From Eledone cirrhosa (Eukaryota), in NCBI GenBank assembly GCA_964016885.1, contig OZ024742.1:221898001-221962000 (forward strand): 64,000 nt of DNA, given 5' to 3'. This document shows, in pieces, positions 669 through 61,290 of the stretch. A model generated the notes under the pieces. It was not told where the DNA came from, searched no databases, and saw nothing but the letters and a program-made list of their open reading frames with translations. Position numbers and translations under genes: made by a program. How positions within the stretch are numbered: position 1 is the first letter of the stretch; each line of letters starts with the position of its first letter.

Positions 669-1229
669 ACGGTGGATTGGTAGAGTCGTTAGAGCATCGG
701 ACAAACGCTTAGCATTATTATTTATTCTGGGTCTTTTTTAGTTTAAATCCCACCGAGGTAAATTTTGCTAATCATCTTTTCCAGGTTAGTAACATAAAGC
801 ACCAATAGAGTAGCAGGGCCGATATAATTGACTTGCCCTTCCTTCTAAAGATTGTTGGCCATTATTATTTGTCTTTTAGGGCAGTGGATTGGCAGAATCG
901 GTAGAGCATCGGACAACATGCTTAGCGGCATCGTATTACGGCCCTTTACGTTCTGAGTTCAAATCCCGCCGAGCTTAGCTTTGCCTTTCATCCTTACGGG
1001 GGCGATAAAATAGAGTACCAGTGATGCACTGGGATCGATTCAGTCGACTTTCCCTCTTACCGCAAAAATTGCTGGCCTTGTTCTTAAATCAGAATCCATT
1101 ATTATTTCTCTTTTAAACGTATGGGGTCGATAAAATAAAGTACCAGTAATGCACTGGGGTCGATTTAAGCGACTTTCCCTTGCCCCCAAATTGCTGGCCT
1201 TGTGCCAACATCAGAAACCATTATTATTA
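669..1229 (+). mobile_element. Three tandem tRNA-derived SINE copies (~669-868 degenerate, ~879-1105 full, ~1122-1229 5'-truncated)
   Basis: A box TGGCAGAATCGG, B box GAGTTCAAATCCC, core GCCTTTCATCCTTACGGGGTCGATAAAATAAAGTACCAG, ATT tails. TSD-like ATTATTATTT(G/C)TCTTTTA flanks the second copy. Confidence 0.9.
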
Positions 1230-1745
1230 CTTGCCCTGGTGGTCAGGGTGGACGTGGTCTTTTATGTGGTTGTCGCCACGAGTAACCCTCGAAGGTTTCC
1301 CCCTATTGGGGAATTTTTCATTGTTTGAATTTTCATTTTTATTGTTTATATATATGTATATGTTTCTATGTCTTTTTTTTCTTTTTTGTTTCTTATATAA
1401 ATAATGGTTTCTGATATAGGCACAAGGCCAGCAATTTTGGGGGAGGGGAAAGTCGATTAAATCGACTCCAGTGCATTGCTGGTACTTTATTTTATCGACC
1501 CCGTAAGGATGAAAGGCAAAGTTAACCTCGGCGGGATTTGAACTCAGATCATCAAGGGACATAACTCTATGCTGCAAAGCATGGCGTCCGACCCTCTACC
1601 GATACTGCCAATCCACTGTATATAAATAATAAAAAAAATCTTTACACGCACAAAACCCACATCGTACCGTCCTGTATCGTCCTGTGCGGTCTGTAATGTT
1701 TTTCTTGATGTCAACCCTTGTGGCCAATAAAGAAATCATTATTAT
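1230..1745 (+). mobile_element. Tx1-like LINE 3' UTR fragment interrupted by a SINE
   Basis: GCCCTGGTGGTCAGGGT, CCCCTATTGGGGAATTTT and terminal CCCTTGTGGCCAATAAAGAAATCATT are shared with the 3' UTRs at 18986-19230 (rc) and 57482-57735. Confidence 0.85.
1401..1618 (-). mobile_element. tRNA-derived SINE inserted in the Tx1-like 3' UTR
   Basis: Reverse complement of the SINE consensus; direct repeat TATAAATAAT on both sides. Confidence 0.92.
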
Positions 1746-3287: not shown

Positions 3288-4391
3288 ATGGAGGGCTGGT
3301 CATGTCGTTACTAATGATGCGCAACCATGCGCTGAGACTGCGGCATCTCCAGATATTCTGTCTCAAGAGTGAACAGGTGTGGTCACCGTATGTGAGACAG
3401 GTCTTTCCGTAACTCGTCTCTTTGACATAGCTGCAGTCCTAGGCCAAGAAGAGACCGAGACTGAGCGCCTGGCATCTGGAATGTTGCCAGGCGCTCACTT
3501 CCCTCTACCAGGCGGGCAATCCGGTCAGTAGAACTTTCGTGTTTTATAGAGGATTAGTGGTAGGCAAGTGCAACGATGCACTCGGAGAGGCTCTGGACGT
3601 CGACCAAGTCGAACTTACCAGGCTGTTCCGGAGGACTTTCGAGCCGGGAACTATAAATAATTTTCAGAAATCTCTTGTTTGGCAGCGTTACCGAGGGTAT
3701 GCTGCCAATTCGAGATAAAATATACAAGCACGGAAGTGCTGTCAGATGGACCTGATCGAGATGCACGCATAGTGATGAAACCGTCCTGCACGCACTCGTC
3801 GAATGTCCGAGTATTGCTGACCTATGGGTTTATGTCGAGCAGCTGCTGTCACGTGTAGGACGGATCCAGCTATCAACTGAGTCCATTGTGAAGATCGCCC
3901 CACCGCCCTCCTTTACAGGAGTACGACAGGCAGTTTTTATTTGCCTGGTGGGCATGGCGAAAGAGGTCACGCTGTGGACGCCAATTTCCTCTTCGGCAAA
4001 GCCCTGATTAACTTTTTCAGGTTTCACTTGAAGGAGAAAATGAGGGTGGAGAGGGAAGTGCTGCCTTCCGACCAGATTGTTGAAAGGTGGGTGAGAGTGG
4101 CGAGCATGGTCCGTGTGAATGGGCCTGCCTTGAGTATATGCCTGTAGATTGGAGTAGAAAGACTGGGAGAGGGCATTTTGCCTTAACGCACAGGGTGACC
4201 TTGGCTTTTGTGGGTTTTCTACACCAGTGACCCTTTGTCTCCTCACCATTGGGGAAGTTGTTGTGTTTGTTTTAAATGTTTATTTTCTTAGTCTCTGTTA
4301 TAAATGTTGTGTTACACAAAAACCCACACTGTATCACACTGTACCGTCTTTAATGTTTCCTTAATATTAACCCTGTGTGGCTAATAAAGAA

Positions 4392-15862: not shown

Positions 15863-16047
15863 GGCGGTGGATTGGCAGTATCGGTAGAGGGTCGGACGCC
15901 ATGCTTTCCAGCATAGTTACGTCCCTTTACGATCTGAGTTCAAATCCCGCCGAGGTTGACTTTGCCTTTCATCCTTACGGGGTCGATAAAATAAAGTACC
16001 AGCAATGAACTGGGTAATTGCTGGCCTTGTGCCTAAAGTAGAAACAA
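15863..16047 (+). mobile_element. tRNA-derived SINE, full length
   Basis: A/B boxes and core; TSD AATATATAACGATGAGT (15828-15844, 16047-16063). Confidence 0.93.
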
Positions 16048-18219: not shown

Positions 18220-18945
18220 GCAGAGATGGATTTCCAGGTATACGTTTTAAATATTTTTCAGTTTTCTTTTTTCATCATTCCAAGTGTGCCGACTATCACT
18301 GGTATTGTACAGGCCGCAAGATGCCACATTTTCTCAATTTCAATTGATAGATCTTTATACTTACCGAGCTTTCGGAATTCTTTCGAAGAGGTGCTACAAT
18401 TTGATGGAATGCTTATGTTAATTGAGAAATATGTTTTTTCTTTATGGTCCTTCATAATTATATCGGGTCTGTTGACATTGGTTGTTCTGTCAGTGTTCAC
18501 AGGGAAATCCCATAGGATTGTCATGTTCTCGCCTCTTGTTACTGCATCTGGATGATGGTTGTACCAATTCCCCTCCGTTTTCAGACCATAAAACATGCAC
18601 ATTACCCAGTGTGAGTATGTCCCCATCCTATCATGCCTCGTTTTATATTCCCGGGGAGCTAATATTTTGCAGCCTGAAATCAGGTGGTCAGTGGTGTCAA
18701 CATGGTCATCACAGAATCGACACTTAAGATAAATTCCATTTCTGATCACATTGGCTTGAAAGTTGCGCGTTGAAAGACACTGGTCTCGTGCAATCAAAAC
18801 GAAGCCCCCACTTTCTGCCTTTAGCCAAGAACTCATTGTTACGGAGAACATACTGCCCATGCAGTGGATTTTGCTACCATTTAGTGCACAGTCTCATTGA
18901 CCTTCATGTTTTGCTAAATGTTTGATGTTCTTTGCGGCTTTAATT
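18220..18945 (-). mobile_element. Dong/R4-like LINE family C, degraded fragment
   Basis: ORF 18258-18860: CRFCDDHVDTTDHLISGC, RHD, ILWDF, NRPDII, KLGKYKDL. Confidence 0.9.
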
Positions 18946-18947
18946 GC

Positions 18948-18978
<31 letters not shown>

Positions 18979-18985
18979 TAATAAT

Positions 18986-21900
18986 GTTTTCTTTATTAAC
19001 CACAAGGGTTTACATAAAGTAGACATTAAGGACAGTACAGGACAATACAGGACGGTACAAATGGGCATTTCTGCGTGTAAAATAAAACAGAGGATGTAAT
19101 AAAATAACAAAGAAAAATTCCCCAATAGGGGGGAGACTTCCGAGGGATATTTGTGGAGAAAGCCCATTAAAAGACCACAGTGACCCTGACCACCAGGGCA
19201 AGTGCCCTCTCCCAGTTTTCCACCTTTAATTTACAGATACGTACTCAGAGAAGGCCCATTCATTCGGGCCATACTTGCTTCTCTCACCCATCTTTCAACA
19301 AAATGCTGGGAAGAGAGCACTTCCCTCTCTACTCTGATTTTCCTTTTCAAATGAAATTTGAAAAAGTTAATCAGGGCATCACCGAAGAGGTAAGTGCTCG
19401 TCTTCAGCCCTTTCAAACGTGTCCACCATACTATCTCTTTCGCCATGGCCACCAGACAGATAAAAACTGCCTGCCCTTCCCGGCTAAAGGAAGAGGGCGG
19501 GGCAATCCTCACGATGGACTCAGCTGATAGCTGGATCCGTCCTACACGTGACAGCAGGTGTTCGACATAAACCCACAAGTCAGCAATGCTCGGACACTGG
19601 ACGAGTGCGTGCAGGACGGTTTCGTCGCCCTGTGCGTATCTCGGCCATGCCCCGCTGACGGCACCTCCATGCCTGTAGAGTTTATCCCAAACTGGCAAAG
19701 CTCCGCGGTAGCACTGCCAGGCCAGGGATTTCTGGAAGTTATCCATAGGCCCCGGCCCGAAAGTCCTTCCGAAGAGATTGGCTAGTTGATTTTCGTCGAC
19801 GCCTAGAGTTTCTCCAAGTACGTCGTCGCTCTTCCCCTCCTCTAATCCTCTATAGAACGCCAAGGTGGAGTTTCCACCGATCACATTGCCCGATTGGTCG
19901 AGGGCTGTGAGCGCCTGAAGACATTCCAGTCTCCAAGCGCTCCCTCTCGGTCTTCGCTTGACCCAGGACTGCAGCTCGGTCAAGGAGACGAGCTGGGGAA
20001 AGACGTGTCTAGCAAACGGCGACCACACCTGATCACCGTCGAGGAAGAGGTGGAGATGTCGTAGCCTGAGTGCGTGTCTGCGCATAATCAGCCACGGCAT
20101 GCCCAGCCCTCCACATAGCGGGTGTTGACAGCAGATGGACCACCTGACCATCGGAGCGCGTCCCTTCCACAAAAAGCGAAAGAGCAAACACTCCAGCGCA
20201 GTCAGGCGGGGCTTAGGACAAGGTACGACGGTCAGGCGGTAGTAGATGACGGACGCGATGTACGCGTTAGCCACCTCCGCTCGACCTTTCAGGGATAGCT
20301 TCCTCTCGGCCCATTTCTGGGTGAGAGAAGCCACCCTGCTCGTCACCTCGTCCCAGTTTTTGTCCGTCTGGAGGTCTGGACCGAACCAGACCCCTAGCAA
20401 TTTAACCGGTCCGTCCGTCCAGCGTCCGACGACGCTGTTGGACGGCATGGACCTGCCTCTCCAGGTGCCGAGCTGCAGGCCCACTGACTTTTCCTGGTTG
20501 ATCATTGCTCCTGTCACCGCTTCGTATTCTCTTAGTGTAGTGCCGATCGCCTCGATGTGTTTGGCGTTCGACACCACTACGGTGCAATCGTCGGCATATA
20601 CTGACACGGATCCTCCGCATCCTAGTTCGCGCGGGACCCCCCTCAACGTCTCCATTTTGTGCAGTAATGGCTCGAGAGTCAATACGTACAATAGGGACGA
20701 GAGGGGACATCCTTGGCGGACCGAGCGCATGATGTTGAACGGTTCCGAAAAGTGACCGTTCACTCTCACTACAGAGAAGATATTGCTGTGCATGGCAGCG
20801 ATCCAGCCTCTGAAGACGGGCCCAAAGCCAGCCGCCCTCAGGACTGCTGCTAGGTAACGATGGTCGACCCTATCGAAAGCTTTCGACTGATCTAAATTGA
20901 TCAAGGACCCACCCGTGCCAGGTTCCCTAGCTACCCTCTCTACGATGTATCGCATGAGGTGGAGGTTGTCGTCAATGGATCTGTCGGGAATGGCGCATGT
21001 CTGCGCCTCTCCCACCAGACCACCAACGACAAGCGCCAACCTCTTTGCTAGCACCTTGACCAAAATCTTGAACTCTGTGTTCAGCAGAGTTATGGGCCTA
21101 AAATTATCTATGTTATCCCCCTTGTTCGGATCCTTTCTCAGCAGCGCCACCGCTCCTCGGCTCACAGAGCTGGGAATTCTGCCGTTCTATTGCCAGTTGC
21201 AGTAGACGTCCGCCAAGAGGCCTCCGAACAAGTCTGGCATTTGTACGTAAAGTTCATAGGGCAGACCATCCAAACCAGGAGATTTATCCCTTGTGCAGCC
21301 CGTCATTGCCTCCCGTACTTCAACGGCTGTTATCGGCTTTTCGCAACACTCCGCCTCAGGGGACGAGAGCCGCGGCAGTCCGTCGAGGTAGACACTAAAG
21401 TCCATCCCTCGATCCGGCCCGCCGCTGCCCCCGAACAGTTGAGCGAAGTGTCGCTGAAAAGCTTCACACATTTGCCCGGGATCGAGTAGCATGCGCCCGT
21501 CATGGTCCACCAAAGACCGGATCGTGGCTTTGTTGCCACGACGCGCCTCCGCCACTCGGGCCCATTGAACGGCTTTCGTCCCCTCGTGTTTGAGAGCACG
21601 CACCCTAGCTCTGACAACGAAGCCTTCGTGCTTTGCATTGTAGAATTGGTCAAGGGCCAATTTCGCCGCAAGTACGTCGGCCACGATGCCTTTGCTAAGT
21701 GCCTCGTCTAATTTTCTAACTAGTTCTCCCTCTGCTCTATTTTTCTCTATTGCTAAAGCCTTACTAAACCTAATGGACTCTATTCTAATAGCTCTTTTCA
21801 GAGGAAACCACCACTTGTTGTTGACGATGGCCCCCGTCAACGCCCGCTTCACTAGTTCGCTAATCCGGTCTCTGTAGGCCTTGCGCGCTGGTAAGGACGC

Positions 21901-24798
21901 TTTTAGCTTCCAGTAGCCGGGTCCTCGTCTATGAAGCCTATCTAAGTCAAGCACACAGATCACGAATTTGTGGTCCGTGTAGCTGACTATCTTGAATAGA
22001 CCTATCTATTTCCCTACAAAATACTCTATCTAGATATGATCTGGATGACCCTATATGATTTGTCCAAGTCCACATTGGCACATTCGGGAATTCCAATCGG
22101 TACCTGTCAGACAGTTCAAAACGCCTGAGCAAGTTGGTGAGACTCTTGCACCCTCCTCTCCTATCCGCTAATCCCACACAGTCCCAGCGTTCATCTAAGA
22201 TCCCGTTCCAGTCGCCCACTAACACTAAAGAGCGGGACGTTCCAAGAAAGGTCTCCAGACGCCGGGGCATAGACGGCCACTAAACTGAAAGCCTGCCCGT
22301 CTCCGCTGGTCACGTCCAGCACCACCAACTTACCTTCTGGGTCCAGGAAGATGGCCCGTATGACGAGATCCAAACCTCTCCGAAAAAGCACAGCAATTCC
22401 TCCCCCCGATCCAGGACGGCTGGGAGATGCGTACACATCGTAGCCGCCGAAGATCTGTGCGAAGGCCCGTGCTTCGGAGATTCTGGTCTCGCTGATGGCC
22501 ACTACATCTATGTTTAGTGACCTGAGGTCGTTGAGCAGGTGGTCCTGCTTCCATGACGACCCCAAGCCACGCACATTTATGCTGCCTATTCTGAGTGAGG
22601 TCATGTTGAAATGGAGTGGAAAAGATGGGAAAGACCACTTACCTTAATTCTCGTAGAGGAAGGACGGTTTCTCCATCCTTTTCACTGCTTGTGGCCTCCT
22701 CAGGAAGGATGTCCTTATAAATCCTCCTGGAGAGTGCTTGTCGGAAGTCTCCGATGTCTTTAGGGAATTTTTGTTTTAGTGTCATGTACGTTTTCTGTGT
22801 GATGCGAGTGATTTGTATGTGTGGAGGTGGTGTGAACGTTTGGGTTGTTGTGTAAGTCTTTTTCTGTGATGCTGGTGTTGTGTTGGATGTAGTGTAATAA
22901 TTGGTTGTTGTTCAAATTTAATGCTGTGTAGTGTGTATCGTTTTGGTTGTTTTGTTTTGTTTGCGTTTGTTGTGGGTTTGTTTCTGTTTCGCTTTTTGGT
23001 GACTTTTGTGGTGTTGGTGATGGTGGTGTTGGAGTTAATGATGGTGATGGTGTTGGTGTTTGTGGTGATGGGGTTGGTGATGCTGGTGTGGATGGTGGCA
23101 TATCTGTCCTAACTTTTTTGTTTGATAGTTTATTTGTTTCCCTCTGTATTTTGTTTTTGGAGGGGGAAGGAAGAGGATTTTTTCTTTTTGGGTTTCTTTT
23201 TCTTTTTTTCTTTTTTCCTGATACCGTTTCCCACTCCTCGTCGTCACAATCTGTCTCCAGTTGCGATAGGTCGGGGAGTGGAAAATCCTCCACAGGCGTT
23301 GGTTTTGGTTGTGGCGTGGTGGATGGTGTAGGCGCTGGTGCTAGTTCTGGCGCGTTGGGTGGTGGTGGTGTTGGTTTTGCTACTGTTGTTGGGATTGTTG
23401 CTGTTACAGTTACTTTTGTTGTGGCTGCTACAGTTGTTGCTGCCATTTCTGCTGCTGGTGGTGTTGATGGTTGAGTCACTGGGGTTGGTAAGAGAGGTGG
23501 CATCAACCTTTTAGCCTGAGGCAGAAAGCCCTTAGGTGGGTTCCTTCACCACAAACGACACACCTAGGCCCTCTGCCCTCGACGATTACGGTGAGGTGGC
23601 TGCCGTCAGTGAGGTCTATTACCTCTGGGATCTCCTCAATGCTTTTTTGGTCCGCTTGGATCAGAAGCTTCATCCCAGATCCGGACCAGTTCTCCTGCTT
23701 TTCTTTCGCTATTTCGATTATCTTGGTGTTGGCTTCGATACCGGCGAGGACGGCAGCTATTAGGCAGGGAATTTCGATGGCCGGTGGAACGTGGGTCACC
23801 CTGATCTTCACGAGTCTCTGGCCACAATAGCTTGGGACGAGTGTGAAGTCGTCACTTCTTAATGGGGCCATGGAGTGTTCTCTGGCCTCCATTGGTTTTT
23901 CAAAGAACACGCCCACTGTTCCATATTTCTGCCCACGTCTGATGTGGGTTTTTTTTGCCCACACATGTCCCAAAGCTTTGTGGATTTGGGACTCGGATGC
24001 CCGTTCCACTCGGCGCGATTTTATGTTAATCGTCTGATAAGACACGATGCATAGGCGCCGTTGCTCCATTTTATTAGGTGTGTGTGTGGGGGGGGGGGGG
24101 GGGGGGGGGCTGACCCTGTACCCATCTTTCTTTACCATTTTTTTGGCTTCTTCTAATTCCTCCTGAGTTACCTGGAATGCTTCGCACTTTTTTGCTACTC
24201 TGGCAAAACTCAGGCTGGTTTTCTTAATTTCATTGTTGCTGTTGTTGTTATCGTTATTTTTGTTATTGTTAATTTTAGTTTCAGTAGTGGTGGTGGCGGC
24301 AGTGGTGATCGGTGTGGAAGAGTTCATTTTGGTTGAATTCATTTCGATATCACAAGTTAATTTATTTTTTTCTTTTGTTTCTGTTGTCGCTGTGGTGATG
24401 GTGGGGGTGGCGGCTTTAACACCTGCAGTCATTGGTAATGGCGGGAAATGAATGTCTGCCTGAGACAAATTTAAAATATTGCTACTGCTTATATTTTTAG
24501 TGTTAGCAAACGTAGTAATATTTACAATGGTGGTGTCGGTGTGAGGTGTTAGTTTGTGAGGAAGGTGTGACTCAGAGTCGTCCATGATTTTTCAAAGAAA
24601 AATCTTTGTTTGATAATTATAAAAGTTTAAATTTTGGGCTCAAGGCCCCAATCATTTTGAGTGTCCTTTTCAGAAAACAATGTATGTGCACTTATATACA
24701 GTTAACAATAAACATTTTCCATAAATAGCAATTTTAAACAACTGAAAATAACAAACCTTTGCGAAGCTCACGATAATACGATTTACTACGTAGGTCGC
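18986..24798 (-). mobile_element. Full-length but frameshifted Tx1-like LINE
   Basis: ORF1 pieces 23503-24585 and 22760-23506 (CVVCGEGTHLRAFC knuckle); ORF2 pieces 22604-19231 (APE: SINVRGL, ISETR, GDWN; RT: QGCPLS, YADD). (AAT)n at 18948-18985 and 24799-24852. Confidence 0.96.
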
Positions 24799-24850
<52 letters not shown>

Positions 24851-27800: not shown

Positions 27801-28328
27801 TACTTGAAAAAGATCACATCTCAATCTTGTGGAACTTTAGCATCCAAACAGACCGAAAAATAGATGCAAATAGACCTGATATAATATTGAAGGACTTTCA
27901 AAGGAGGGTATGCCTGCTAATTGATATGTCTGTTCCAATAGACAAGAATGTATCTATAAAAACATTTGAAAAATTGAGCAAGTATAAGGACCTGGAGATA
28001 GAAATTGGAAAAATGTGGAAATTGAGAACTAAAACAATACCAGTGGTTGTAGGCGCTCTGGGAATGATACCTAAGGGGTCTAACGACTACTTATCGCAAA
28101 TCCCAGGAAACCCGCGTATAGGAGAAATACAAAAGATAGTACTAATGGGAACTGCCCATATACTAAGGAAGATCCTGTCAATATAAGTACATCACAAGTC
28201 TAAACACTAAGGATGCATGTGTGAATATGTGTGTTCTTTCTTGAACATGGCGGACCTTGTTGTCTCTTGAGGTCAGTGGTTGTGACTTGGTGATAACTCG
28301 TATAAACATAAAGCAAGATAAATGCAAA
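24851..28328 (+). mobile_element. Dong/R4-like RT-RLE LINE family B, slightly 5'-truncated, one in-frame stop
   Basis: One frame 24851-28186 broken only by TAG 25898-25900; RT (QGDSLSP, YMDD), CRVCKKQPETIDHIISMC, RHD, RPDII..LIDMSVP..KLSKY. (AAT)n tail to 28353. Confidence 0.96.
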
Positions 28329-44387: not shown

Positions 44388-44735
44388 TGGGGGATTGGCA
44401 GTATTGGTAGAGGGTCGGGCGCCATGCTTTGCAGCAAAGAGTTACGGCCCTTTATGGTCTGAGTTCAAATCCCGCCGTAGTTAACTTTGCCTTTCATCCT
44501 TTCGGGGTCGATAAAATAAAGTACCAATATTGCACTGGAATAATTGCTGGCCTTCTGCCAAAAGTAGAAACAATTATTTATGGTTGCTTTGCAGCAAAGA
44601 GTTACGGCCCTTTATGGGCTGAGTTCAAATCCCGCCGACGTTAACTTTGCCTTTCATCCTTACGGGGTCGATAAAATAAAGTACCAATAATGCACTGGGA
44701 TAATTGCTGGCCTTGTGCCGAAAGTAGAAATAATT
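44388..44735 (+). mobile_element. Tandem pair of tRNA-SINEs at one target site
   Basis: ATTATTTATGGTTG occurs before, between and after the copies. Confidence 0.92.
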
Positions 44736-49787: not shown

Positions 49788-50558
49788 TTGGTGTCGAAAT
49801 AACATTTACAAGGTTGAATTCCTTGCCTGATGCTGTTCACCTTAACATCGTATCACAACACAACCTCCCCCCCCTCTCCTCCTCCTCTACCCCCCACCCA
49901 CCCTTATAGCCCATATCTCTTTTTATCTACTCCAGACGTCCTACCTTATTCTCAGGCTTGTTATAACTTATAATATCACCTTGCCCTTTGGGTTACGTCT
50001 ATTACCTCCCACCTAAAGGTGGCACGGGGGAGGGGGGGGCACATTCTCTTCCATTTCTCACATTCTCCTGACTTGCTGCTTGCCAGATTCTCAGACTTCT
50101 CGCTCCCACCTAATTTTGAGGCATTATGGTGGTTTTGATGTCAAGTTTGATTGCCTTGTTACACACACATGGCACACACACACACATGCACACACACACA
50201 CATGCACACGCACACACACACAAACAAACACACACACACACACATGCACACACACACACACACACAAACAAACACACATACACACATGCACACACACACA
50301 CACACAAACACACAAACAAACACACATACACACACATGCACACACACACACACACATATGCACACACACACACACACACAGACACACACAAACACACAAA
50401 CAAACACACATACACACACACATACATATATATATATATACATATACATAAATATATACATATTTTCACCTATTCGCAGGAATTGTTTCCCAACAGCCCA
50501 CCAACATACAAACACACACAGACGCACACTTATATACATACATGCATACAACAGCAGA

Positions 50559-50643
50559 GGTCCGACGAGCTTTTGATTCCAGAGTCAGGCCAGGTTGATA
50601 CAGATCGAACCTTGAGCTGATCAATAGCGAAACGTGCGTTACC
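50559..50643 (+). ncRNA. Degenerate type I hammerhead ribozyme
   Basis: GGU-CCGACGA(U4C)-GCUUUUGAU...AUCAAUAGC-GAA-ACGUGCGU-U-ACC. Confidence 0.6.
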
Positions 50644-50682
50644 AATCAATAAACGCAAGGCTTAACAAATCGTCATTGTATT

Positions 50683-51175
50683 TTATCTGAGTTCAAATCC
50701 CGCTGAGCTTAACTTTGCCTTTCATCCTTACGGGGTCGATAAAATAAAGTACCAGTCACGCACATCGACTTCCCCCCACCCCCAAAATTGCTGGCCTTGT
50801 GCCTATATAAGAAACCATTATTATTATTTTTGTTGTTTGAATTTTTTTTAATTTCTAGCCCGATTTTGTTATAACCTGTTTACATGACCTAAACCCACTT
50901 TGTATCGTCCTGTACTGTTCTGTGCCGTCTCTAATGTTTTTCTTCGAGTTAGCCCTTGTGGCCAATAAAAAAACCATTATTATTATTATTATAGCAGGGC
51001 GGTGGATTGGCAGTATCGGTAGACAGTCGGACGCCATGCTTTCCAGCATAGTTACGTCCCTTTACGGTCTGAGTTCAAATCCCGTCGAGGTTAACTTTGC
51101 CTTTCATCCTTACGGGGTCGAAAAAATAAAGTACCAGTAATGTACTGGGTAATTGCTGGCCTTGTGCCAAAAGTA
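50683..51175 (+). mobile_element. SINE (50683-50825), Tx1-like 3' UTR stub (50826-50976), SINE (50997-51175)
   Basis: SINE consensus; stub ends GCCCTTGTGGCCAATAAAAAAACCATTATT. Confidence 0.9.
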
Positions 51176-51194
51176 TTATTATTGTTATTGTTAT

Positions 51195-51880
51195 TCCTTG
51201 AATCTCAGTCATTGATGTTGGTTAACTGGAAAGTCCGTTGGATTGAATATCAAGCCACTACCTGCAGCCTCAGATATTCAGGACGTATCGGAGGGTTCTT
51301 GCCGTTCCAAGCAAGCATGCCTTTTGAAGCGTTCCAAAAAGCGTGAAGGGGCCGATTTTCTTTAACCATCCCTGGAAGCCTTTGGAGATAGTCCCCAGTG
51401 CGCCTATGACAATCGGGATCACTTTGACTTCATGGCAGTTCCAAATCCTTTTCACCTCCCACTTTAGGTCCTGGTATCGGTTAATTTTCTCCCTCTCCTT
51501 CTCTTGCACTCTCGTGTCGAACGGGCAGGCCACATCCACAATCAGGCACGATCTTTTTTCTTTGTCCACAACCACCAGGTCAGGTCTATTGTGTTCCAGT
51601 TTTTTGTCCGTCTGTATCCTAAAATCCCACAGCACCTTCACCTGACTGTTCTCCATCACCGCCTCTGGCCTATGCTCATACCATTTCTCAGAATGTGGTA
51701 GATTGTTTACTTTGCACAGGTGCCAGTGGATCACCCTGCCCATCACATCGTGTCTCCAGCCCTTATAGTGGGTCTGGGCTAGGTGTTTACACTCGGACAC
51801 AATGTGAGCCACAGTCTCCTCTCTCTCTCCACAGATCCTGCACAGTGGGCTAGCCTCCTCCTTGTAGATATGGTGCTTCA
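51195..51880 (-). mobile_element. Dong/R4-like family A, 3' fragment with open frame
   Basis: CRICGEREETVAHIVSEC...RPDLVV..LIVDVACP..KINRY; (ATT)n on both sides. Confidence 0.95.
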
Positions 51881-52121
51881 ATAATATTATTATTATTATT
51901 ATTATTATTGACGAAAGTGGATGTACGTTTTTTGAAGCTCCGTGAGTAAGCAATTTTTTGAGGATTAATTGTAGAGAATTGTTTATTTTTTTGTACCGCT
52001 GAAGCATTATAAGACATTAATTTGTATCCTGTGAAGGAATAACTCATAATATTTGGGCCTTTTGGCCCAAATATTTGAACTTTATTTTGAAAAAAAATAA
52101 TAATTTTTTTCTCAAAAAAAC

Positions 52122-54032
52122 ATGGCGGAGCCACGCCCCCTAGAGGCGGGTCTGCTGTCGTGCAACGGCGACTTGAGCGTTGAGAGGAGAGGTGAGGCGA
52201 GGAGCGCCACCAGCACGAATGTGAGCAGCGACAGTGCCAGCACCAACGGGCCGAGCGGCGCGGAAGGTGGTAACAGCGACAACACCAACACCAACAAGCC
52301 GAACAGCGCAGAAGGTGGTAATAACGAGAGCACCAACAAAACGAACAGCACAGAGAGTAATAGTAGCGACAGCAACAGCACCAACAAGGCCAACAGCACA
52401 GAGGGTAACCACGACACAGGGGAGAACAACAACAGCAATAGCAGCAGCAACACCAACAAGAACAACAACAGTGACAACACCAACAAGAACACTTTCGCTG
52501 CTGTGGCAGCGGCTAAAAGGAGACCATGCTACAGCATCGACTTAACCAACAGAGAGGAAAAGTTGGCCCAGGCCTGGAAAATCATAAATCAAGAGCAGAC
52601 CTGGGCAAACTTAACTGTCCCGGCAGAAGCCATTGAGGCAGTGGAAAAAAGAACGGTGCATTTCAGATGCATCTCAGTAGAGACAAAGAGGGCAGCGATA
52701 ATCGCCCAAGCTGACATAGAAGCCGCACTGAAATACATCAGAGAGGACACAGACTTCATAGAGAGGGGCAGGCAATACGGCACCGTTTCGGTGCTGTTCA
52801 AGTCTGAAGCCCTCGCTGTGAAGCATTCAATGACCCCTTGCAAAACCAGCAAGGTCATAATGTACCCCTCCCACATGGGAAAACGAATAGCACGTGTGCG
52901 CATTCCCAGGATTCCACCAGGACTTGATATGTGGTGGCTCCTGGGTTGCGTAATCGTGGAAGGAACGGATACAGTCCCGGTAGAGGCAACGAGAACTGCC
53001 AGGGACGACTGGTCCGGGGTTGATCTGGAGATACTGCTCCAAATCAGACCCGAAAACGTAAAAACAATCCCGGACCACATCCGCCTCCAAAACGGGAGGG
53101 TGTTGCATATAATGACTGAGGGCAAAAGGCCGCATTGTTTCCTTTGTGGGGAAACGACACACTTGCGAGCCTTCTGCCCTCAACTGCCGAAAAGCGCAAG
53201 GGGTCGAAAGATTCCACTGCTGGCGACGCCGGGACAAGGACCACCAGCAACACCGTCAACAATGGAACCACCAAAATTGCACACCCAGGGGGGAAACGAG
53301 GAAAGCTCTCCCATTCCCCCTCCCCCCCAAAATACACACACGAACAAGAACATAAACACTCACTCAGACACAAACACGCTCACAGCCACAGACCCCTCAT
53401 CCTCCAGCAGTGAAGATGAGGGAAAACCAAAGTCCCCCAAAATACAAAAAACAAAACACAAAGAAAAAAGAAATCCACAAAGCACAAACACCCCCACAAA
53501 AAAAAATACACACACCACCCACACAAACATTTTCCCCACAGCATCACCAACACAACCACCAAAATCCCCCAAACGCAAACAAGCTAAACAGACACAAGAA
53601 CAAATAGACACACAAACATCAGAAACTACAGACACCCCACCCACAACAAACGCAGACACAATAGAAACAACACTAACAAAGCTATCACCACCACAATCAC
53701 ACGAACAAATAAAACCCGAGCAACAAAACATTAAAAACTTCGTGCTTGCCAGAAGGGCCAACAAGGAATTGATGGCCCATGTAGCACGAAGCACAAACAT
53801 CGAAAAAGACGGGGAAACATTTGAAGCGAGCACATTTCGCGTACCAGATAATTTGCTTCTGATGCGAATGTCGCTCGCTTCATACAAAGAAATTCGAAAG
53901 AGCTTTCCTCGGGATGTGGGAACCCCGAACGTAAAACCCACGTCAAGACTATTAAAGGGGTTCCCAAAAGAAACCCCACAAACCATGGAGGTCGAACCAC
54001 CCGACCTTCACAAGACCCCGGAAGGTAAGTAA
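52122..54032 (+). CDS. Tx1-like ORF1p (gag-like nucleic-acid-binding protein)
   Basis: 636 aa; CCHC knuckle CFLCGETTHLRAFC; central region homologous to ORF1 at 23503-24585; low-complexity flanks. Confidence 0.92.
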   Translation: MAEPRPLEAGLLSCNGDLSVERRGEARSATSTNVSSDSASTNGPSGAEGGNSDNTNTNKPNSAEGGNNESTNKTNSTESNSSDSNSTNKANSTEGNHDTGENNNSNSSSNTNKNNNSDNTNKNTFAAVAAAKRRPCYSIDLTNREEKLAQAWKIINQEQTWANLTVPAEAIEAVEKRTVHFRCISVETKRAAIIAQADIEAALKYIREDTDFIERGRQYGTVSVLFKSEALAVKHSMTPCKTSKVIMYPSHMGKRIARVRIPRIPPGLDMWWLLGCVIVEGTDTVPVEATRTARDDWSGVDLEILLQIRPENVKTIPDHIRLQNGRVLHIMTEGKRPHCFLCGETTHLRAFCPQLPKSARGRKIPLLATPGQGPPATPSTMEPPKLHTQGGNEESSPIPPPPQNTHTNKNINTHSDTNTLTATDPSSSSSEDEGKPKSPKIQKTKHKEKRNPQSTNTPTKKNTHTTHTNIFPTASPTQPPKSPKRKQAKQTQEQIDTQTSETTDTPPTTNADTIETTLTKLSPPQSHEQIKPEQQNIKNFVLARRANKELMAHVARSTNIEKDGETFEASTFRVPDNLLLMRMSLASYKEIRKSFPRDVGTPNVKPTSRLLKGFPKETPQTMEVEPPDLHKTPEGK

Positions 54033-54061
54033 ACCTTTCCTCTCCCATTCATCCTGCCAGC

Positions 54062-57000
54062 ATGGCCATAAGAGTAGGAAGTTTAAATGTTCGTGGCCTG
54101 GGGTCGCCCTGGAAGCAAGGTCACTTGCTCAACGACCTCAGGTCACTAGGAATGGATGTAATTGCCATCAGCGAGACCAGAATTTCCGACACACGCGCAC
54201 TGGCGCCGATTTTCGACGATTATCAGATCTTTGCATCTGTTAGTCGGCCGGGAATGGGAGGTGGAGTGGCTGTGCTGTTTAGGAAATGTCTGGATCTCGA
54301 GGTAAGGTCAATCTTCCGGGATCCTGACGGAAAGTTGGTGGTCCTGGACGTGAGCAATAGCGAAGGTGGTGCCTTTAGACTGGTGGCCGTCTACGCCCCT
54401 ACTGGGGCCGGTCGGCCGGACTTCTTTAGGCGCCTGGAAAACTTTCTGCTTACGTCTCGCCCTTTACTGTTAATAGGGGATTGGAATGGCATCTTAGAAG
54501 CACGCTGGGATTGTGTGGGAGTATCTGATAGGAGCGGGGGGTGCAAAAGCCTCAAGTACCTGATCAGCCAGTTTCAACTGTCTGACAGGTACCGACTAGA
54601 TTTCCCTAATGCGCCAGTATGGACCTGGACCAATCGCATAGGGTCATCTAGATCGTACATAGATAGGATTTTCATTAGGAAAAGAGATAGAAATAGTGTA
54701 GGATGTCCACATTTTAAAACGGTTGCCTATTCAGATCACAAGCTTGTGATCTGTATGGTCGACCTAGATAAGACACGTAGGTTAGGACCTAGCTACTGGA
54801 AGCTAAACATGTCGTTTCCGGCACGTAAAGCTTACAGGGACCGGGTCAACAACTTAGTTAAGCAAAAGTTGACAGGGGGGGTTGTCAACAACAGGTGGTG
54901 GGGGGCACTCAAAAGAGAGATTAGAGCAACCTCGATAGGATTTAGCAAAGAAGTAGCAATAGAGAAAAATAGAAAGGAGGAGGGGCTGATAGCTAAGTTA
55001 GACGAGGCTATTTGTAGTGGCATTGCAACAGACGTGCTAGCGGCGAGAATGGCACTAGACCATTTCTTCAATGCGAAACACGAAGGTTGCATTGTCAGAG
55101 CTAAGGCGCGTGCTCTGAGGAACGAGGGAAGCAAAGCTGCCCGATGGGCTCGCTTTGCAGAGACGCAGCGTGGAAATAAAACCACAATTCGGTCTTTGAC
55201 GGATCGAGATGGACACGAACTGAGCGATTCCAAGCGGATGTGTGAGGCCTTTCGCCAGCACTTTGCTCGATTGTTCGGGAGGATGGGTGAGTCGGAGACG
55301 GCGGCGGACTTCAGTCCCTACCTCGACGGCTTGCCACGCCTCTCGACGGCCGACGCTGAGCGCTGCGAAGAGCCGATAACATCAGCCGAAATTCAGGACG
55401 CCCTTGTCGGCTGCTCGAGTCGCAAGTCACCCGGTTTGGATGGTCTGCCCTACGAGCTTTACGTAAATATGCCAGACTTGTTCTCCGATCTCCTCGAAGC
55501 GCTCTACTGCAACTGGCAGCAGAACGGGAGCATTCCCAGTTCTGTGAGCCGTGGCGTAGTGACGCTGATAAGGAAAGACGAGAACAAGAGGGACACACTA
55601 GATAATTTCAGGCCCATAACCCTGCTCAACACAGAGTTTAAGATTTTGGCCAAGGTGTTAGCGAAAAGGTTGGCGCTTGTCGTCAAAGATTTGGTTGGGG
55701 AGGCGCAAACTTGCGCAATCCCGACCAGGTCCATACACGACAACCTCCACCTCATGCGATACATCATAGAGAGGGTTGGGTGCAAACCTGGCTTCGGTGG
55801 GGCTCTGATCAATTTAGATCAATCGAAAGCATTCGATAGGGTCGACCATCGGTACTTGGAGGCTGTCCTCGAGGCGGCTGGCTTCGGCCCCGTCTTCAGA
55901 AGCTGGATCGCTGCAATGTACAGCGGCATCCGCTCGGTGGTCAAAGTTAATGGCCACCTCTCGGAACCGTTTCAGATCTCTCGATCGGTCCGTCAAGGGT
56001 GCCCTCTCTCCTCACTTCTGTACGTATTGACTCTTGAGCCTCTACTGCGGAAGCTGGAGTTGTTGCAGGGCATCCCGCTCGAACCGGGACGTAGAAAGGC
56101 TGCGTCCGCTTATGCGGACGACATCACCGTGATGGTGTCGGACACCTCGGAAATCGAGGTGATCCGCACCCATTTGGAGGAATATGAAAGGTTGACGGGA
56201 GCAAAACTTAACCCGGAAAAGTCGGTGGGCTTGCAGCTCGGCACCTGGAGAGGCAAGTCCATGCCGTCCAACAGCGTCGTTGGGCGCTGGACAGACGGAC
56301 CGGTAAAGTTGCTCGGGGTTTGGTTCGGACCAGACCTCCAGGTGGATAAGAATTGGGACGAGGTGACGAGCAGGATAGCCAACCTCACCCAGAAATGGGC
56401 TGAGAGAAAGCTATCACTGAAAGGGCGGGCGGAGGTGGCGAACGCGTACATCGCGTCCGTCATCTACTACCGCCTGACCGTCGTGCCTTGCCCCCGTCCA
56501 CGCCTCGCCAATTTGGAACGGCTCCTTTTCAAATTTTTGTGGAGGGGACGGGTCCCGTTGGTGAGGCGGTCCATCTGCTGCCAGCACCCTCTTCGTGGAG
56601 GGCTGGGCATGCCGTGGCTAATGATGCGCAGACATGCGCTGAGGCTGCGACATCTCCAGATATTTTGCCTAAACGGTGAACAGGTGTGGTCGCCGTTTGT
56701 TAGACGGGCCTTTCCGCAGCTCATCTCTTTGACTGAGCTGCAGTCCTGGGTCAAGAAGAGACCGAGACTGGGCGACTGGCATCTGGAATGTTGCCAGGCG
56801 CTCACTGCACTCTGCAAGGTGGGCAATGCGGTCAGTGGAACTTCCACTCAAGATTTCTATAGAGGATTAGTGGAGGGCAAGTGCGATGACGTACTAGGAG
56901 AGGCTCTGGGCGTCAACGAAGTAGAACTGACCAGTATGTTCCGGAGGACTTTCGAGCCGGGGACGATGGATAACTTCCAGAAATCCCTCGCTTGGCAGTG

Positions 57001-57481
57001 CTACCGGGGGGCGCTGCCGGTTCGGGATAAACTCTACAGGCACGGAAGTGCTGTCAGACGAACCTGCCCGAGATGCGCGCAGAGCGACGAAACCGTTCTG
57101 CACGCACTCGTCCAGTGTCCGTGCATTGCTGACTTGTGGGGTTATGTCGAACAGCTATTGTCGCGTGTAGAACGGATCCGGCTATCGTCCGAGTCCATAG
57201 TGAAGATTGACCCGCCGCCTTCTTTTGGTCAGGAAGGGCAGGCAATTTTCCTCTGCCTGGTGGCAGTAGCGAAAGAGGTTGCATGGTGGACCAGGTTGAA
57301 AGGACTGAAGACAGACACTTTTCTCTTCGGCCAATCCCTCATCAACTTCTTCAAGTTTCACTTGGAAAGGAAGGTGAGGGTGGAGAAAGAAGTGCTGCCC
57401 CCCAGTACATTTACTGAAAGGTGGGTGAATGTGGCGAGAATGGCCCGCGTGAGTGGGCCTACTCTGATCATGCGCCTGTAG
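54062..57481 (+). CDS. Tx1-like ORF2p: APE endonuclease + reverse transcriptase + CCHC
   Basis: 1139 aa; SLNVRGL, ISETR, VYAP, GDWN, IDRIF, SDH; KSPGLDGLP, RPITLLN, DQSKAFDRVDH, QGCPLS, YADD; CPRC..ETVLHALVQC. Confidence 0.97.
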   Translation: MAIRVGSLNVRGLGSPWKQGHLLNDLRSLGMDVIAISETRISDTRALAPIFDDYQIFASVSRPGMGGGVAVLFRKCLDLEVRSIFRDPDGKLVVLDVSNSEGGAFRLVAVYAPTGAGRPDFFRRLENFLLTSRPLLLIGDWNGILEARWDCVGVSDRSGGCKSLKYLISQFQLSDRYRLDFPNAPVWTWTNRIGSSRSYIDRIFIRKRDRNSVGCPHFKTVAYSDHKLVICMVDLDKTRRLGPSYWKLNMSFPARKAYRDRVNNLVKQKLTGGVVNNRWWGALKREIRATSIGFSKEVAIEKNRKEEGLIAKLDEAICSGIATDVLAARMALDHFFNAKHEGCIVRAKARALRNEGSKAARWARFAETQRGNKTTIRSLTDRDGHELSDSKRMCEAFRQHFARLFGRMGESETAADFSPYLDGLPRLSTADAERCEEPITSAEIQDALVGCSSRKSPGLDGLPYELYVNMPDLFSDLLEALYCNWQQNGSIPSSVSRGVVTLIRKDENKRDTLDNFRPITLLNTEFKILAKVLAKRLALVVKDLVGEAQTCAIPTRSIHDNLHLMRYIIERVGCKPGFGGALINLDQSKAFDRVDHRYLEAVLEAAGFGPVFRSWIAAMYSGIRSVVKVNGHLSEPFQISRSVRQGCPLSSLLYVLTLEPLLRKLELLQGIPLEPGRRKAASAYADDITVMVSDTSEIEVIRTHLEEYERLTGAKLNPEKSVGLQLGTWRGKSMPSNSVVGRWTDGPVKLLGVWFGPDLQVDKNWDEVTSRIANLTQKWAERKLSLKGRAEVANAYIASVIYYRLTVVPCPRPRLANLERLLFKFLWRGRVPLVRRSICCQHPLRGGLGMPWLMMRRHALRLRHLQIFCLNGEQVWSPFVRRAFPQLISLTELQSWVKKRPRLGDWHLECCQALTALCKVGNAVSGTSTQDFYRGLVEGKCDDVLGEALGVNEVELTSMFRRTFEPGTMDNFQKSLAWQCYRGALPVRDKLYRHGSAVRRTCPRCAQSDETVLHALVQCPCIADLWGYVEQLLSRVERIRLSSESIVKIDPPPSFGQEGQAIFLCLVAVAKEVAWWTRLKGLKTDTFLFGQSLINFFKFHLERKVRVEKEVLPPSTFTERWVNVARMARVSGPTLIMRL

Positions 57482-57733
57482 GCTGGTGAATTCGAGAAGG
57501 AGAGGGGTGCCCTTCCCGGGTGCCCTAGGAGCGTCGGGTGGCTCAGGACTGGTGGGGTGCTTGAGTCAACCCTGGGTGGTGATCCCTCTTATTGGGGAAC
57601 TTTCATTGTTGTATTTTTATTGTTATTTTGTTTTTTTTGTTATTTATACTTACTCGATCTCTATGTAAACCCCCACTGTCCCTGTCTATTGTGTTGTCCC
57701 CTATATGTCGGCCCTTGTGGCCAATAAATGAAA

Positions 57734-57783
<50 letters not shown>

Positions 57784-60700
57784 GTTCTTTGAGTCTCAGT
57801 CATTGATGTCATTTAACTGGAAAGTTTGTTGAAATGAATATCAAGCCGCCACGTGCAGCCTCAGATATTCAGGACGTATCGGAGGGTTCTTGCTGTTCCC
57901 AGTAAGCATGCCTTTTGAAGTGTTCCAAAAAGCGGGGCTGGACTAATCTTCTTTAACCATCTTTGGAAACTCTTTGAGATAGTACCTAGTGCGTCTATGA
58001 CAATTTCATGGCAGTTCCAAATTCTTTTTAACTCCCACTTTAAGTCCTGGTATCAGTTAATTTTCTCCCTCTCCTTTTCTTGCATTCTCGTGTCAAATGG
58101 GCAATTTACATCTACAATCAGGCACGATCTTTTTTCCTTGTCCCAAACCACCAGGTCAGGCCTATTGTGTTCTAATTTCTTGTCCGTCTGTATCCTAAAA
58201 TCCCATAGCACCTTCACCTGATCGTTTTCTATCATCGACTCTGGCTAATGTTCATACCACTTCTCCGAATGTGGTAAATTGTTTACTTTGCATAGATGCC
58301 AGTGGATCACCCTGCCTATCACATCATGTCTCCAGCCCTTATAGTGAGTCTGGGCTAGGTGTTTACACTCGGATACAATGTGAGCCACAGTCTCCTCTCT
58401 CTCTCCACAGATCCTACACAGTGAGCTAGCCTCCTCTTTGTCAATATGGTGTTTCACTCACTTCGTTCTGAGGGCTTGCTCTTGCGCAGCCATTAGCATT
58501 CCTTCTGTAGCCTTTTTAAGGTCTCCTCTTTTTAACCAGTTCCATGTCTGTGGTTCTCTAAATTCTGTTTTCTTAAAGAAGGTGCTATGAAGGGATTTTT
58601 CATGAAGGTTGCTCTTCCTCCTTGTTGTTATTTCCTCCTTGGACATCCCCTGGTCTATTGTCTTCTCCTTCAGTACGATTTTGAGCATTGGCTCCCTACT
58701 GTCTGTCACGTATTTGTGCAGGTTGTTTTTCTCCATCTGAACACAGTCCTCTATGCTGATAAGACCTCTTCCACCTTCAGATCTCCTTAAGTAGAGTCTA
58801 TTGACATCACTCCTCTTGTGGAACATGTTGTAGATAGTCAATATCTTCCTAGTCTTCCTATCCATTTCTTTTTGTTCAGTAACATTCCATTTCAGAATTC
58901 CCGCACTGTATCTAATAATAGACACAGCTCGGGAATTTATTGCACTTATAACATTCCTACTATTCAGATGTGATTTTAGTACGCTCCTTACTCTCCTTAT
59001 CTACTCAGACCTTATCAATTGCTTCATTTTTTTTGTTCTTGATGTCATCTGCCTCCAGAACACCTAAATATTTGTATCCCTCTTCAGTGTCAATTTCCTT
59101 TATCATCTCACCTGTTGGTACCTGGATTCTGTTGCTTCTGCTCAATTTACCCCTCTTCATCACTAGGACTCCACACTTATTAATACCAAATTCCATACAT
59201 ATATCATTGCTGAAAATACGGACAGTGTCAACAAGTACATCCAACTCCTTCTCACTCTTCCCAAAGAGTTTAAGATCGTCCATGAAGAGGAGGTGATTGA
59301 TGGTAAGCTCTCCTCTTCCCAACTTGTATCCTGCTCTCACTTTTCGCAATATAACGGACAGGGGTATCAGGGCAAGGACAAACAGCAGAGGGGCAAACTA
59401 TCTCCCTGGAAGATACCTCTCTTGATCTTCACGCCTCCCAAGGATTCTCCACCTGATGTTAACTCTGTTTCCCAGGATTTCATACTTTTGCTCAACAACT
59501 GTCTGATGTTATCTGCCACCTTCAAGATCTCTAGGCTTTTGGTTATCCAAGAATGAGGTACCATGTCGAATGCCTTTTTGTAATCTATCCATCCCATGGC
59601 AAGACCAGTGTGCCTCCTCTTGCAATTCCTCATTACCATCTTATCAATAAGTAACTGGTCTTTTGTACCACGGGACTTCTTTCGGCATCCTTTCTGTTCG
59701 TCCGGTAACAAGTTGTTTATGTGGAGGTGATTGTAGATTTCTCCAGACACAATGCTTGTGAACAGTTTCCACATTACGGACAGATATGTGATAGGCCTAT
59801 AGTTTCATTACCCTTGATTCGGTCTTTCATTACCAGAATTGTGGTACCTTTTGTCAACCACTCTGGTACTTCACCCGACATCAAGCAGTCATTGAACATG
59901 GTTGTCAGTTTCGGGTGGAGGGATGTTATGTTTTTAATCCAATACCCTTGCACACCATCTGGGCCTGGTGATTTCCAGTTGGTTAGTCTTTTGGCCTGCC
60001 CTTTAAGAGTTTCAACTGTGATACTCAAATCAGGTTGTTGGTGTGCTTGTTCACTAATCTCCTTTTGAACTGTCTTAATCCGCACTGCCTGACTATTATG
60101 TTCAACATCCTGCTCCCTTATTCCACCCCAGAATGTCTTAGTCTGTTCCGCCTCAGGGATCACGTCGTTGCATCTTTCTTTCCCTTCAAGCTGTCCAAAC
60201 AACATCTTCTGGCTGTTGTCAAACATGCGGTTCTGTCTATACTGACTGACTCTGTTCTCATACCGCCTAATCTTTGCACTTTTTGCTACAATGCTTTGCT
60301 TCAGTTCCTCTATGATAATATTTAGCCTTTTCCCCCTAGTTTTGTATTTTGTTTCCAATCTATCTTTAGTGTCTATGTTTTCTAATGTCCCATTCAGTAA
60401 GGACTCAAGCTTTCCAATGTCTTTTCTCATTTCCTTGATTTGACCATTCAGTCGTTTCTTCCACCAAGGTTCTGATCTTTCTTGTTTGTTGTTTCCTCTC
60501 GTTTTTATACCCAGTAATTTCCTCACCGCATTTGCGGTTGCTTTGAGGATATTGTTGCATTGGTTCCTCGCCTCAAAGTATGGGATGACTTTGTTTTCCT
60601 TAGCTGTTGTTTCATTTAACTTTTTCATGTCTACAAATCTTAGGTTCATAGGTTTTCCACTATCATTGTTCATTTCATCTACCATTAAGTTCAGGATATC

Positions 60701-61290
60701 AACCAAATCTTGCCCTAGCCCGTCAGCATTCATTTCCTCAAAGGCCGTATCTTTGTTCCAGATGTTATTTATTTCAGCATTCAGATCATTGTCTGCTTCG
60801 GATGCTTCCCCAGGTCTCTCAACCTCTTCACCTTCATTTCCCACTGGCTCGTTTGCCTGACATACTCCACTCTCCATTTCCAACTTAATCTCTCTGCTCA
60901 GTTCCTCCAGTTCCAACTCGCTTATCCATCCATTAGTTCTTATTACCCGAGCCTGTCCGGCCAATTTTTGTTCATCTAATTTAACTAGACCAATCTCGTT
61001 CCAGATGTTATGCATCCGTTTCCTATAGCCTTTTCCCTTGGGGTTACTCTTCAGGTAACATTTCATGACAGTTCTATTCAATTCTTTCGTCCAGTTGGTT
61101 CTTGTCCCATTCCTTCTTCTTCCTCCATCACCAGCAGTATTTGGATGACAGCCAGGTCCCTGCTGCTGGGCCAGGGAGCACTTGCTGGGTAAGAGTCTTT
61201 CACGTGACTTTTCAGTCTCCTTTTCACCGTTATTCGAACTGTTCGTCATTTAAACACTCATATCGAAGATTGGTGAATGTATGGTTACAT
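57784..61290 (-). mobile_element. Near full-length, frameshifted Dong/R4-like LINE family A
   Basis: ATG at 61249; N-terminal WTKELNRTVMKCY...GYRKRMHNIW; RT ([17 protein letters not shown]); zinc finger; RLE; stop at 57861; (ATT)n at both ends. Confidence 0.95.

What the first reader, a model, noticed from the sequence alone, without database searches (positions are those of the whole stretch)
51881..57783. Intact (ATT)n-microsatellite-targeting Tx1-like LINE
Seen: both ORFs are open and (ATT)n lies at both ends. A divergent full-length relative (18986-24798) is also embedded in the same repeat at both ends, and four 3' stubs end in ATT. A 5' flanking ATT run argues for target preference rather than just a tail. 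Known: Tx1-group elements include sequence-specific families (Kibi, TC repeats; Koshi, TTC repeats; Keno, U2). Inference: an APE specific for ATT/AAT repeats, possibly still active.
Basis: partly seen in the sequence, partly recalled or inferred. Interest (0 to 1): 0.75.

Follow-up and report, generated by a model that had tools for sequence, protein, structure and literature searches.

The report
Young LINE family targeting ATT repeats
This is an intact copy of a very young jumping-gene family whose hundreds of full-length copies nearly all sit inside ATT repeats of a probably octopod genome, likely because its enzyme cuts at such repeats, a target I did not find described for this group of elements.

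Summary
Confirmed, with corrections. The element (51910-57735, +) has both ORFs open and ATT runs on both sides. Genome-wide, 319 of 325 exact 5' ends follow (ATT)3; the family of the divergent relative gives 1586 of 1723; background is about 0.1%. Copies in interrupted repeats duplicate the interruption (15-18 nt), so those flanks are target DNA, not a tail. Some copies on different contigs are identical over 5.8 kb, so the family is very young; present activity is untested. Corrections: I find three ATT-ended stubs, not four, and the relative is broken. An endonuclease specific for long ATT repeats is only partly supported. A SINE with a similar 3' end inserts at a short Y|ATTA motif, mostly outside microsatellites, as do most truncated copies with a visible duplication. 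Of 38 5'-incomplete copies, 29 show no duplication. Tx1 membership rests on domain layout, not on a labelled tree. Microsatellite-targeting Tx1 families (TC, TTC, TTCC, TTTC) and TAA-targeting Dong are known; I found no ATT-targeting Tx1 in ten searches, but Repbase was not searchable. The scan has reported this family before on other DNA of this genome.

The parts
51886..51909 (+). 5' flanking (ATT)8: left part of the target repeat plus the inferred target-site duplication
   Evidence: family pattern
51910..52121 (+). 5' UTR starting with G directly after ATT; holds a predicted 12-bp hairpin whose sequence is shared with the sister subfamilies
   Evidence: no HDV-like ribozyme found by my own rough descriptor
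52122..54032 (+). ORF1, 636 aa; predicted two RRM-like domains followed by one CCHC knuckle at aa 339-352; low-complexity ends
   Evidence: (pLDDT 91.8)
54062..57481 (+). ORF2, 1139 aa: APE endonuclease with the motifs that align to the L1 active site, reverse transcriptase (YADD), C-terminal zf-RVT
57482..57735 (+). 3' UTR ending in a predicted small stem-loop (GGCC-CTTGT-GGCC), AATAAA and GAAATC; no poly(A)
57736..57783 (+). 3' flanking (ATT)16: inferred duplication plus rest of the target repeat
18986..24799 (-). Full-length but broken copy of a sister family (E2), ATT runs at both ends (18948-18985, 24800-24850)
   Evidence: (92.6% to a copy with intact ORF2)
3289..4391 (+). 3' stub of a related family ending in (ATT)16
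1229..1737 (+). 3' UTR stub, interrupted by an inverted SINE at 1468-1616, ending in (ATT)7
50894..50975 (+). short 3' stub ending in (ATT)5 (start approximate)
51273..51872 (-). 5'-truncated Dong/R4-like LINE that abuts the element's 5' ATT run in the opposite orientation (ORF part)
   Evidence: tblastn with the Dong-like ORF at 26141-28183; the Dong label is recalled from the C-terminal motifs
57864..61249 (-). Dong/R4-like LINE whose 3' end abuts the element's 3' ATT run in the opposite orientation (ORF part)
50996..51175 (+). 186-nt-type SINE copy with a 3' end similar to the LINE's; candidate passenger

Best explanation
This is an intact, full-length copy of a very young LINE family of the L1 group, likely of the Tx1 clade, whose full-length copies lie almost only in (ATT)n repeats, likely because its APE endonuclease nicks the AAT strand at a T|A step and primes reverse transcription there. 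Shown: the flanks are target DNA in copies where the repeat is interrupted; the duplication begins right after the element's last bases GAAATC and is 15-18 nt in the clearest cases. Inferred steps: (1) the RNP binds its RNA by the 3' stem-loop; (2) APE nicks 5'-ATAAT|R-3' on the bottom strand; (3) the other strand is cut about 9-19 nt downstream; (4) full-length insertions finish best where that end is also ATT, through a second T|A nick and/or pairing of one or two ATT units at the RNA 5' end. Each insertion copies part of the repeat, which makes new targets and head-to-tail arrays.
For: 319 of 325 exact 5' ends follow (ATT)3, in phase; 685 of 875 matches to the 3' 38-mer, which includes older sister copies, are followed by (ATT)3; sister family E2, 74% identical in ORF2 protein, 1586 of 1723; background 0.06-0.1%. 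63 of 66 paired copies have 3 or more ATT units on both sides, medians 7 and 6 (39 were picked by likeness to the window copy and some are neighbours in arrays). Interrupted repeats are duplicated: L092/L202 and L172 18 nt, L361 15 nt, truncated L159 17-18 nt; in L068 and L128 the element end is followed by GTT, matching the 5' flank. Upstream flanks differ between loci, so this is not hitch-hiking in one larger repeat. SINE sites have a pyrimidine just before the duplication in 27 of 28 cases against 61% background (p 2e-5), a position that the RNA tail would not pair with. The 13-residue stretch WTWTNRIGSSRSY in the APE is identical in the two ATT families and differs in 14 of 14 distant homologues. 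Youth: mean pairwise difference 0.36% among 47 copies, 7 with an identical partner; 37 of 47 selected and 8 of 20 mostly unselected copies have both ORFs open; 124 of 150 best C-terminal matches lie in a 1150-codon open frame (my count).
Against: Only 2 of 38 5'-incomplete copies were flagged with (ATT)3 at the break, and 29 of 38 show no duplication that I could recognise, including the young copy L138. I read these mostly as later deletions, which are common inside older copies, but did not prove it; some rows are artefacts of locus ends or other families. Of the 9 truncated copies with a duplication (picked by eye), 1 has 3 or more ATT units downstream, against 24 of 33 full-length sister copies (p 0.0014). 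The SINE has (ATT)3 downstream in only 13 of 70 copies. So strict endonuclease specificity for long repeats is not shown. No nicking data, no labelled tree.
Confidence: 0.75

Rival explanations
1. RNA pairing does most of the aiming: a loosely specific APE nicks many AT-rich T|R sites, and AUU repeats at both RNA ends select the sites where priming and 5' joining succeed.
For: Truncated copies and SINEs land in degenerate sites while full-length copies land in repeats. All full-length junctions are in phase. L068 has one ATT more at the 5' junction than its 3' copy. E2 5' runs are long (18 of 30 have 14 or more units). Precedent: R2 RNA that carries upstream target sequence gives precise 5' junctions (PMC3774820, passages).
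Against: L092, L172 and L361 keep a target GTT within 3-6 nt of the 5' junction, so at most 1-2 units can come from RNA. Young copies are mostly full length (38 of 40 assignable on part of C1), which is hard to get if any short motif were nicked. T|A is the only pyrimidine-purine step in the repeat, so phase needs no pairing.
Confidence: 0.35
2. The ATT runs are made by the element (tail and head) and copies insert without real target choice, or pile up passively in ATT-rich repeat heaps.
For: Many 5'-incomplete copies have ATT at the 3' end only; 14 of 66 copies sit directly behind another copy of the same 3' type.
Against: Duplicated interruptions show that both flanks came from the target; some copies have no ATT tail at all (L068, L128, L110); AT and AC repeats outnumber AAT 66 and 19 to 12 in the window yet were not seen at the 5' junctions examined.
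Confidence: 0.08
3. The family is already catalogued (for example in Repbase or Dfam) as an octopod L1-Tx1 family with its target noted.
For: L1-Tx1 is a known, recently active class in Octopus vulgaris: 13 families, 421 recent insertions (PMC13282606, passages); 80 consensus sequences (its supplement, one row).
Against: That paper has no occurrence of 'target' in its main text or its one held supplement; ten searches gave no ATT-targeting Tx1.
Confidence: 0.25

Closest known systems
Kibi (TC)n, Koshi (TTC)n and crocodilian (TTCC)n/(TTTC)n Tx1 families (PMC4494074, passages and section 15; PMC3812793, passages)
   Same: APE-type Tx1-group LINEs that insert into microsatellites
   Different: Target here is ATT/AAT, host is probably an octopod; kinship with these families untested
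Dong (R4 clade; TAA repeats; silkworm, mosquito, snail Biomphalaria) (PMC3812793, passages; PMC3774820, passages)
   Same: Same microsatellite; Dong-like elements flank this copy
   Different: Dong uses a restriction-like endonuclease (recalled; the review lists it under APE-type) and has a 5' HDV-like ribozyme; it faces the other way in 7 of 7 hits among 60 flanks
Human LINE-1 ORF2p (PDB 8sxt and others)
   Same: Best solved relative, E 4e-57 over residues 4-853; APE + RT layout; cut at a pyrimidine-purine step (L1 TTTT|AA recalled)
   Different: No poly(A) tail in copies, RRM + CCHC ORF1, strong repeat targeting, mostly full-length young copies
Tx1-Mar with SINEU in crocodilians (PMC4494074, passages)
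   Same: A Tx1 group inferred to move a SINE with a shared target
   Different: Here the SINE also resembles the LINE's 3' end, and is much less strict than the LINE
SART1Bm in (TTAGG)n (PMC7265360, abstract only)
   Same: APE-type element (recalled) that needs at least three repeat units
   Different: Telomeric repeat, poly(A) tail, R1 clade (recalled)

Membership tests
L1 group of non-LTR retrotransposons | Two ORFs; ORF2 with N-terminal APE, RT and C-terminal cysteine-rich motif; RT closer to L1 than to R2 | tested here: met
   L1 ORF2p E 4e-57 against R2 E 3e-22
Tx1 clade | Type I ORF1 (RRM + CCHC knuckle) instead of Transposase_22 (PMC5203782, passages) | tested here: met
   Predicted model pLDDT 91.8 matches tandem RRM proteins; CX2CX4HX4C at aa 339; zf-CCHC in 12 of 81 aligned relatives, none in the query itself. 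Also found in plant L1, so not diagnostic alone.
Tx1 clade | RT groups with named Tx1 families in a tree | not testable with these tools
   No hit was named Tx1 among 72 and 120 listed homologues or their clusters; no Repbase
Tx1 clade, target-specific families | More than 20% of flanks of one sequence type (criterion of PMC4494074) | tested here: met
   319 of 325 and 1586 of 1723 5' ends
Kibi / Koshi | Insertion into (TC)n or (TTC)n | tested here: not met
   Flanks are ATT in the 5' ends examined
Dong / R4 clade | Single ORF with C-terminal restriction-like endonuclease (recalled) | tested here: not met
   Two ORFs and N-terminal APE; only 23% identity to the window's Dong-like RT
Currently active LINE | Intact ORFs and near-identical dispersed copies | tested here: met
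Currently active LINE | Transcription and polymorphic or new insertions | tested here: inconclusive
   Only contigs could be laid; they cannot span this locus

The most novel reading that the evidence does not exclude
A still-active Tx1 lineage has taken over the AAT microsatellite by two layers of aiming: an APE that reads a short Y|ATTA(T) core, and ATT at the RNA 5' end that lets only insertions in true repeats finish at full length. It shares the repeat with unrelated Dong elements on the other strand and moves one of the genome's commonest SINEs through a shared 3' stem-loop, so that together they build much of the genome's ATT repeat landscape.
Probability: 0.3. Interest if true: 0.68.

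Novelty: new variant of a known kind. Interest (0 to 1): 0.48.

Why it matters
It adds a target to the short list of microsatellites chosen by APE-type LINEs, and shows two unrelated LINE types on one repeat. A review states that the mechanism of microsatellite targeting is not well understood (PMC3812793, passage). Here hundreds of near-identical full-length copies, truncated copies and tens of thousands of SINE copies with different strictness give a natural test of how much aiming comes from the endonuclease and how much from RNA-DNA pairing. It also means that ATT microsatellite markers in this animal group often lie at mobile-element junctions. The kind of system is known, so the surprise is moderate.

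Tried and rejected
No RNA holder listed. Laying contigs of public runs showed no joint that skips exactly this element and no piece across it; this says nothing on polymorphism. Rfam gave only two chance-level hits in 50500-58200. An HDV-like ribozyme at the 5' end was not found in 5 of 5 UTRs with my own unvalidated descriptor. ARAGORN found no tRNA in the window, so the tRNA origin and the Nin/Deu label of the SINE are recalled only. The protein atlas gave no answer. A search for more distant sister families with other targets gave no answer, so the target switch claimed in earlier notes is untested. Hitch-hiking in a larger repeat was rejected because upstream flanks differ. A pure-tail reading was rejected by duplicated interruptions. 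Two papers were not held, Kojima and Fujiwara 2004 is known to me only through citing passages, and the supplements and Fig. 3 labels of PMC4494074 could not be seen; they may list further Tx1 targets. Rows dropped: L197 had no paired end; 5 of 20 E2 loci had no 3' end found and L288 was chimeric; 42 of 70 SINE copies were left out of the motif count (duplication under 12 nt or more than 3 ATT units), and three of the 28 kept are copies of one site (25 of 26 without them).

Full report
Observation. The element runs from 51910 (GACG...) to 57735 (...GAAATC) on the + strand, between (ATT)8 and (ATT)16. ORF1 (52122-54032, 636 aa) and ORF2 (54062-57481, 1139 aa) are open. ORF2 has an APE domain, an RT domain and zf-RVT. 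Its best solved relative is human L1 ORF2p (E 4e-57, residues 4-853), and the motifs that align with the L1 endonuclease active site are present. The ORF1 core is predicted with high confidence as two RRM-like domains and carries one CCHC knuckle, a layout that PMC5203782 (passages) links to the Tx1 clade in non-mammalian animals. The relative at 18986-24799 (-) is full length and ATT-flanked but has frameshifts and stops. Three related stubs, not four, end in ATT. The closest named homologue is from Argonauta hians (67%), so the host is probably an octopod.

Genome-wide flanks. The 5'-terminal 18-mer occurs 325 times and 319 times directly after (ATT)3. All 30 unselected 5' loci had ATT directly upstream, with varied DNA beyond it. 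The 3'-terminal 38-mer occurs 875 times, 685 times followed by (ATT)3; this set mixes the young subfamily with an older sister about 86% identical, whose full-length copies also start after ATT. The family of the window's relative (74% protein identity) has 1723 exact 5' matches, 1586 after (ATT)3 plus a purine. Background for (ATT)3 is 0.06-0.1% of positions. Ten 5' ends lie at about 5.8-kb spacing on C1 at 423.37-423.42 Mb, a head-to-tail array.

Target, not tail. In 66 paired young copies the medians are 7 units upstream and 6 downstream, and 63 have at least 3 on both sides. Where the repeat is interrupted, the interruption is often duplicated: 18 nt in L092/L202 and L172, 15 nt in L361, 17-18 nt in the truncated young copy L159. 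In L068 and L128 the element end is followed by GTT, which matches the 5' flank. In these copies both flanks are target DNA and the duplication starts right after GAAATC. Other short-flank copies (L070, L093, L209, L052) fit duplications of only about 9-13 nt.

Age. Among 47 full-length copies (39 picked by likeness to the window copy) the mean pairwise difference is 0.36%; seven have an identical partner, several on other contigs; 37 have both ORFs open. In 20 further copies, 18 taken from the 5'-end list and 2 chosen as exceptions, 8 have both ORFs open. On C1 up to 323 Mb, 38 of 40 assignable young copies are full length (one locus not examined, very short stubs not assignable). Present activity is not shown: public data gave only contigs.

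What limits the endonuclease claim. Of 38 5'-incomplete copies, 2 were flagged with (ATT)3 at the break and 29 show no recognisable duplication. Older copies carry many internal deletions, which probably explains part of this, but it is not proven. Of the 9 with a duplication, only 1 has three ATT units downstream, against 24 of 33 full-length sister copies (p 0.0014; the nine were picked by eye). A 186-nt SINE (31,995 exact matches to a 37-nt 3' pattern) ends in a sequence like the LINE end, with the same CTTGT loop; the LINE families show GGCC/GGCC and AACC/GGTT stems around it, although the SINE's own best fold did not form this hairpin. SINE copies are followed by ATTAT in 57 of 70 cases but by (ATT)3 in only 13; 28 clear duplications are mostly 12-20 nt and are preceded by a pyrimidine in 27 (background 61%). 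If this clade moves the SINE, which is inferred, the core cut site is 5'-ATAAT|R-3' on the bottom strand, and the LINE's preference for true repeats needs a second layer.

Mechanism. Most likely the APE nicks the AAT strand at a T|A step, reverse transcription starts after the 3' stem-loop, and a second cut about 9-19 nt downstream makes the duplication. Full-length copies finish where the second end is also ATT, either through a second T|A nick or through pairing of one or two ATT units at the RNA 5' end, as described for R2 RNAs that carry upstream target sequence (PMC3774820, passages). L092, L172 and L361 cap that RNA share at 1-2 units. A 13-residue APE stretch is identical in the two ATT families and differs in 14 distant homologues; its role in target choice is recalled from L1 loop-swap work and is weak evidence.

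Neighbours. The element sits between two Dong/R4-like LINEs on the opposite strand. Among 60 flanks, 7 had a Dong-like hit and all 7 faced the other way. Dong is known to target TAA (PMC3812793, passage). Most of the 15 ATT runs of four or more units in the window lie at LINE, SINE or Dong ends.

Prior knowledge. Tx1 families on TC, TTC, TTCC and TTTC repeats are described (PMC4494074, passages and section 15). L1-Tx1 is known and recently active in Octopus vulgaris without a stated target (PMC13282606, passages and one supplement row); PMC8967140, PMC10294476, PMC4758252 and PMC3747384 (passages) name no such target either. Ten searches found no ATT-targeting Tx1; the library lacks most subscription journals and Repbase. 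This scan has noted the same family group on other DNA of this genome at least eight times; those notes are not independent support.

Verdict. A real, very young, ATT-targeting LINE family of the L1 group, probably Tx1. It is a new variant of a known kind: new target, known principle. Interest 0.48.

Noticed in passing
window 25160-28186 (+), 4526-5763 (-), 57864-61249 (-), 51273-51872 (-), 18267-18833 (-), 1906-2061 (-), 2299-3285 (-): At least seven Dong/R4-like LINE pieces of several subfamilies; most end in the same repeat, opposite to the Tx1-like elements.
   Followed up: partly
window 15863-16046, 17818-18200, 44389-44730, 50996-51175 and others: 18 hits to a 186-nt SINE in the window; its 3' end resembles the LINE's and its duplications start with ATTA.
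   Followed up: yes
L249, L263 (G000:C1 about 1.98 Mb and 10.32-10.36 Mb): The first 45 nt of the SINE are amplified as a tandem satellite tens of kb long.
   Followed up: no
L059-L062 (G000:C1 423.37-423.42 Mb): Ten head-to-tail copies of the element; the junctions examined have five ATT units.
   Followed up: partly
L210-L239: E2 copies have much longer upstream ATT runs (often 16-24 units) than the young family (6-8); unexplained: older expansion, preference for long runs, or RNA-borne repeats.
   Followed up: partly
L031, L039-L042, L046, L047, L057, L069: A young variant lacking one 48-nt repeat unit in ORF1 (620 aa instead of 636) has spread as its own lineage.
   Followed up: no
L130-L189: Older sister copies carry many internal deletions, which suggests fast DNA loss in this genome.
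   Followed up: no
window 51910-57735, run X5: A run under another organism code holds a related version at roughly 92-95% identity and high depth, so the lineage may have expanded in another species too.
   Followed up: no
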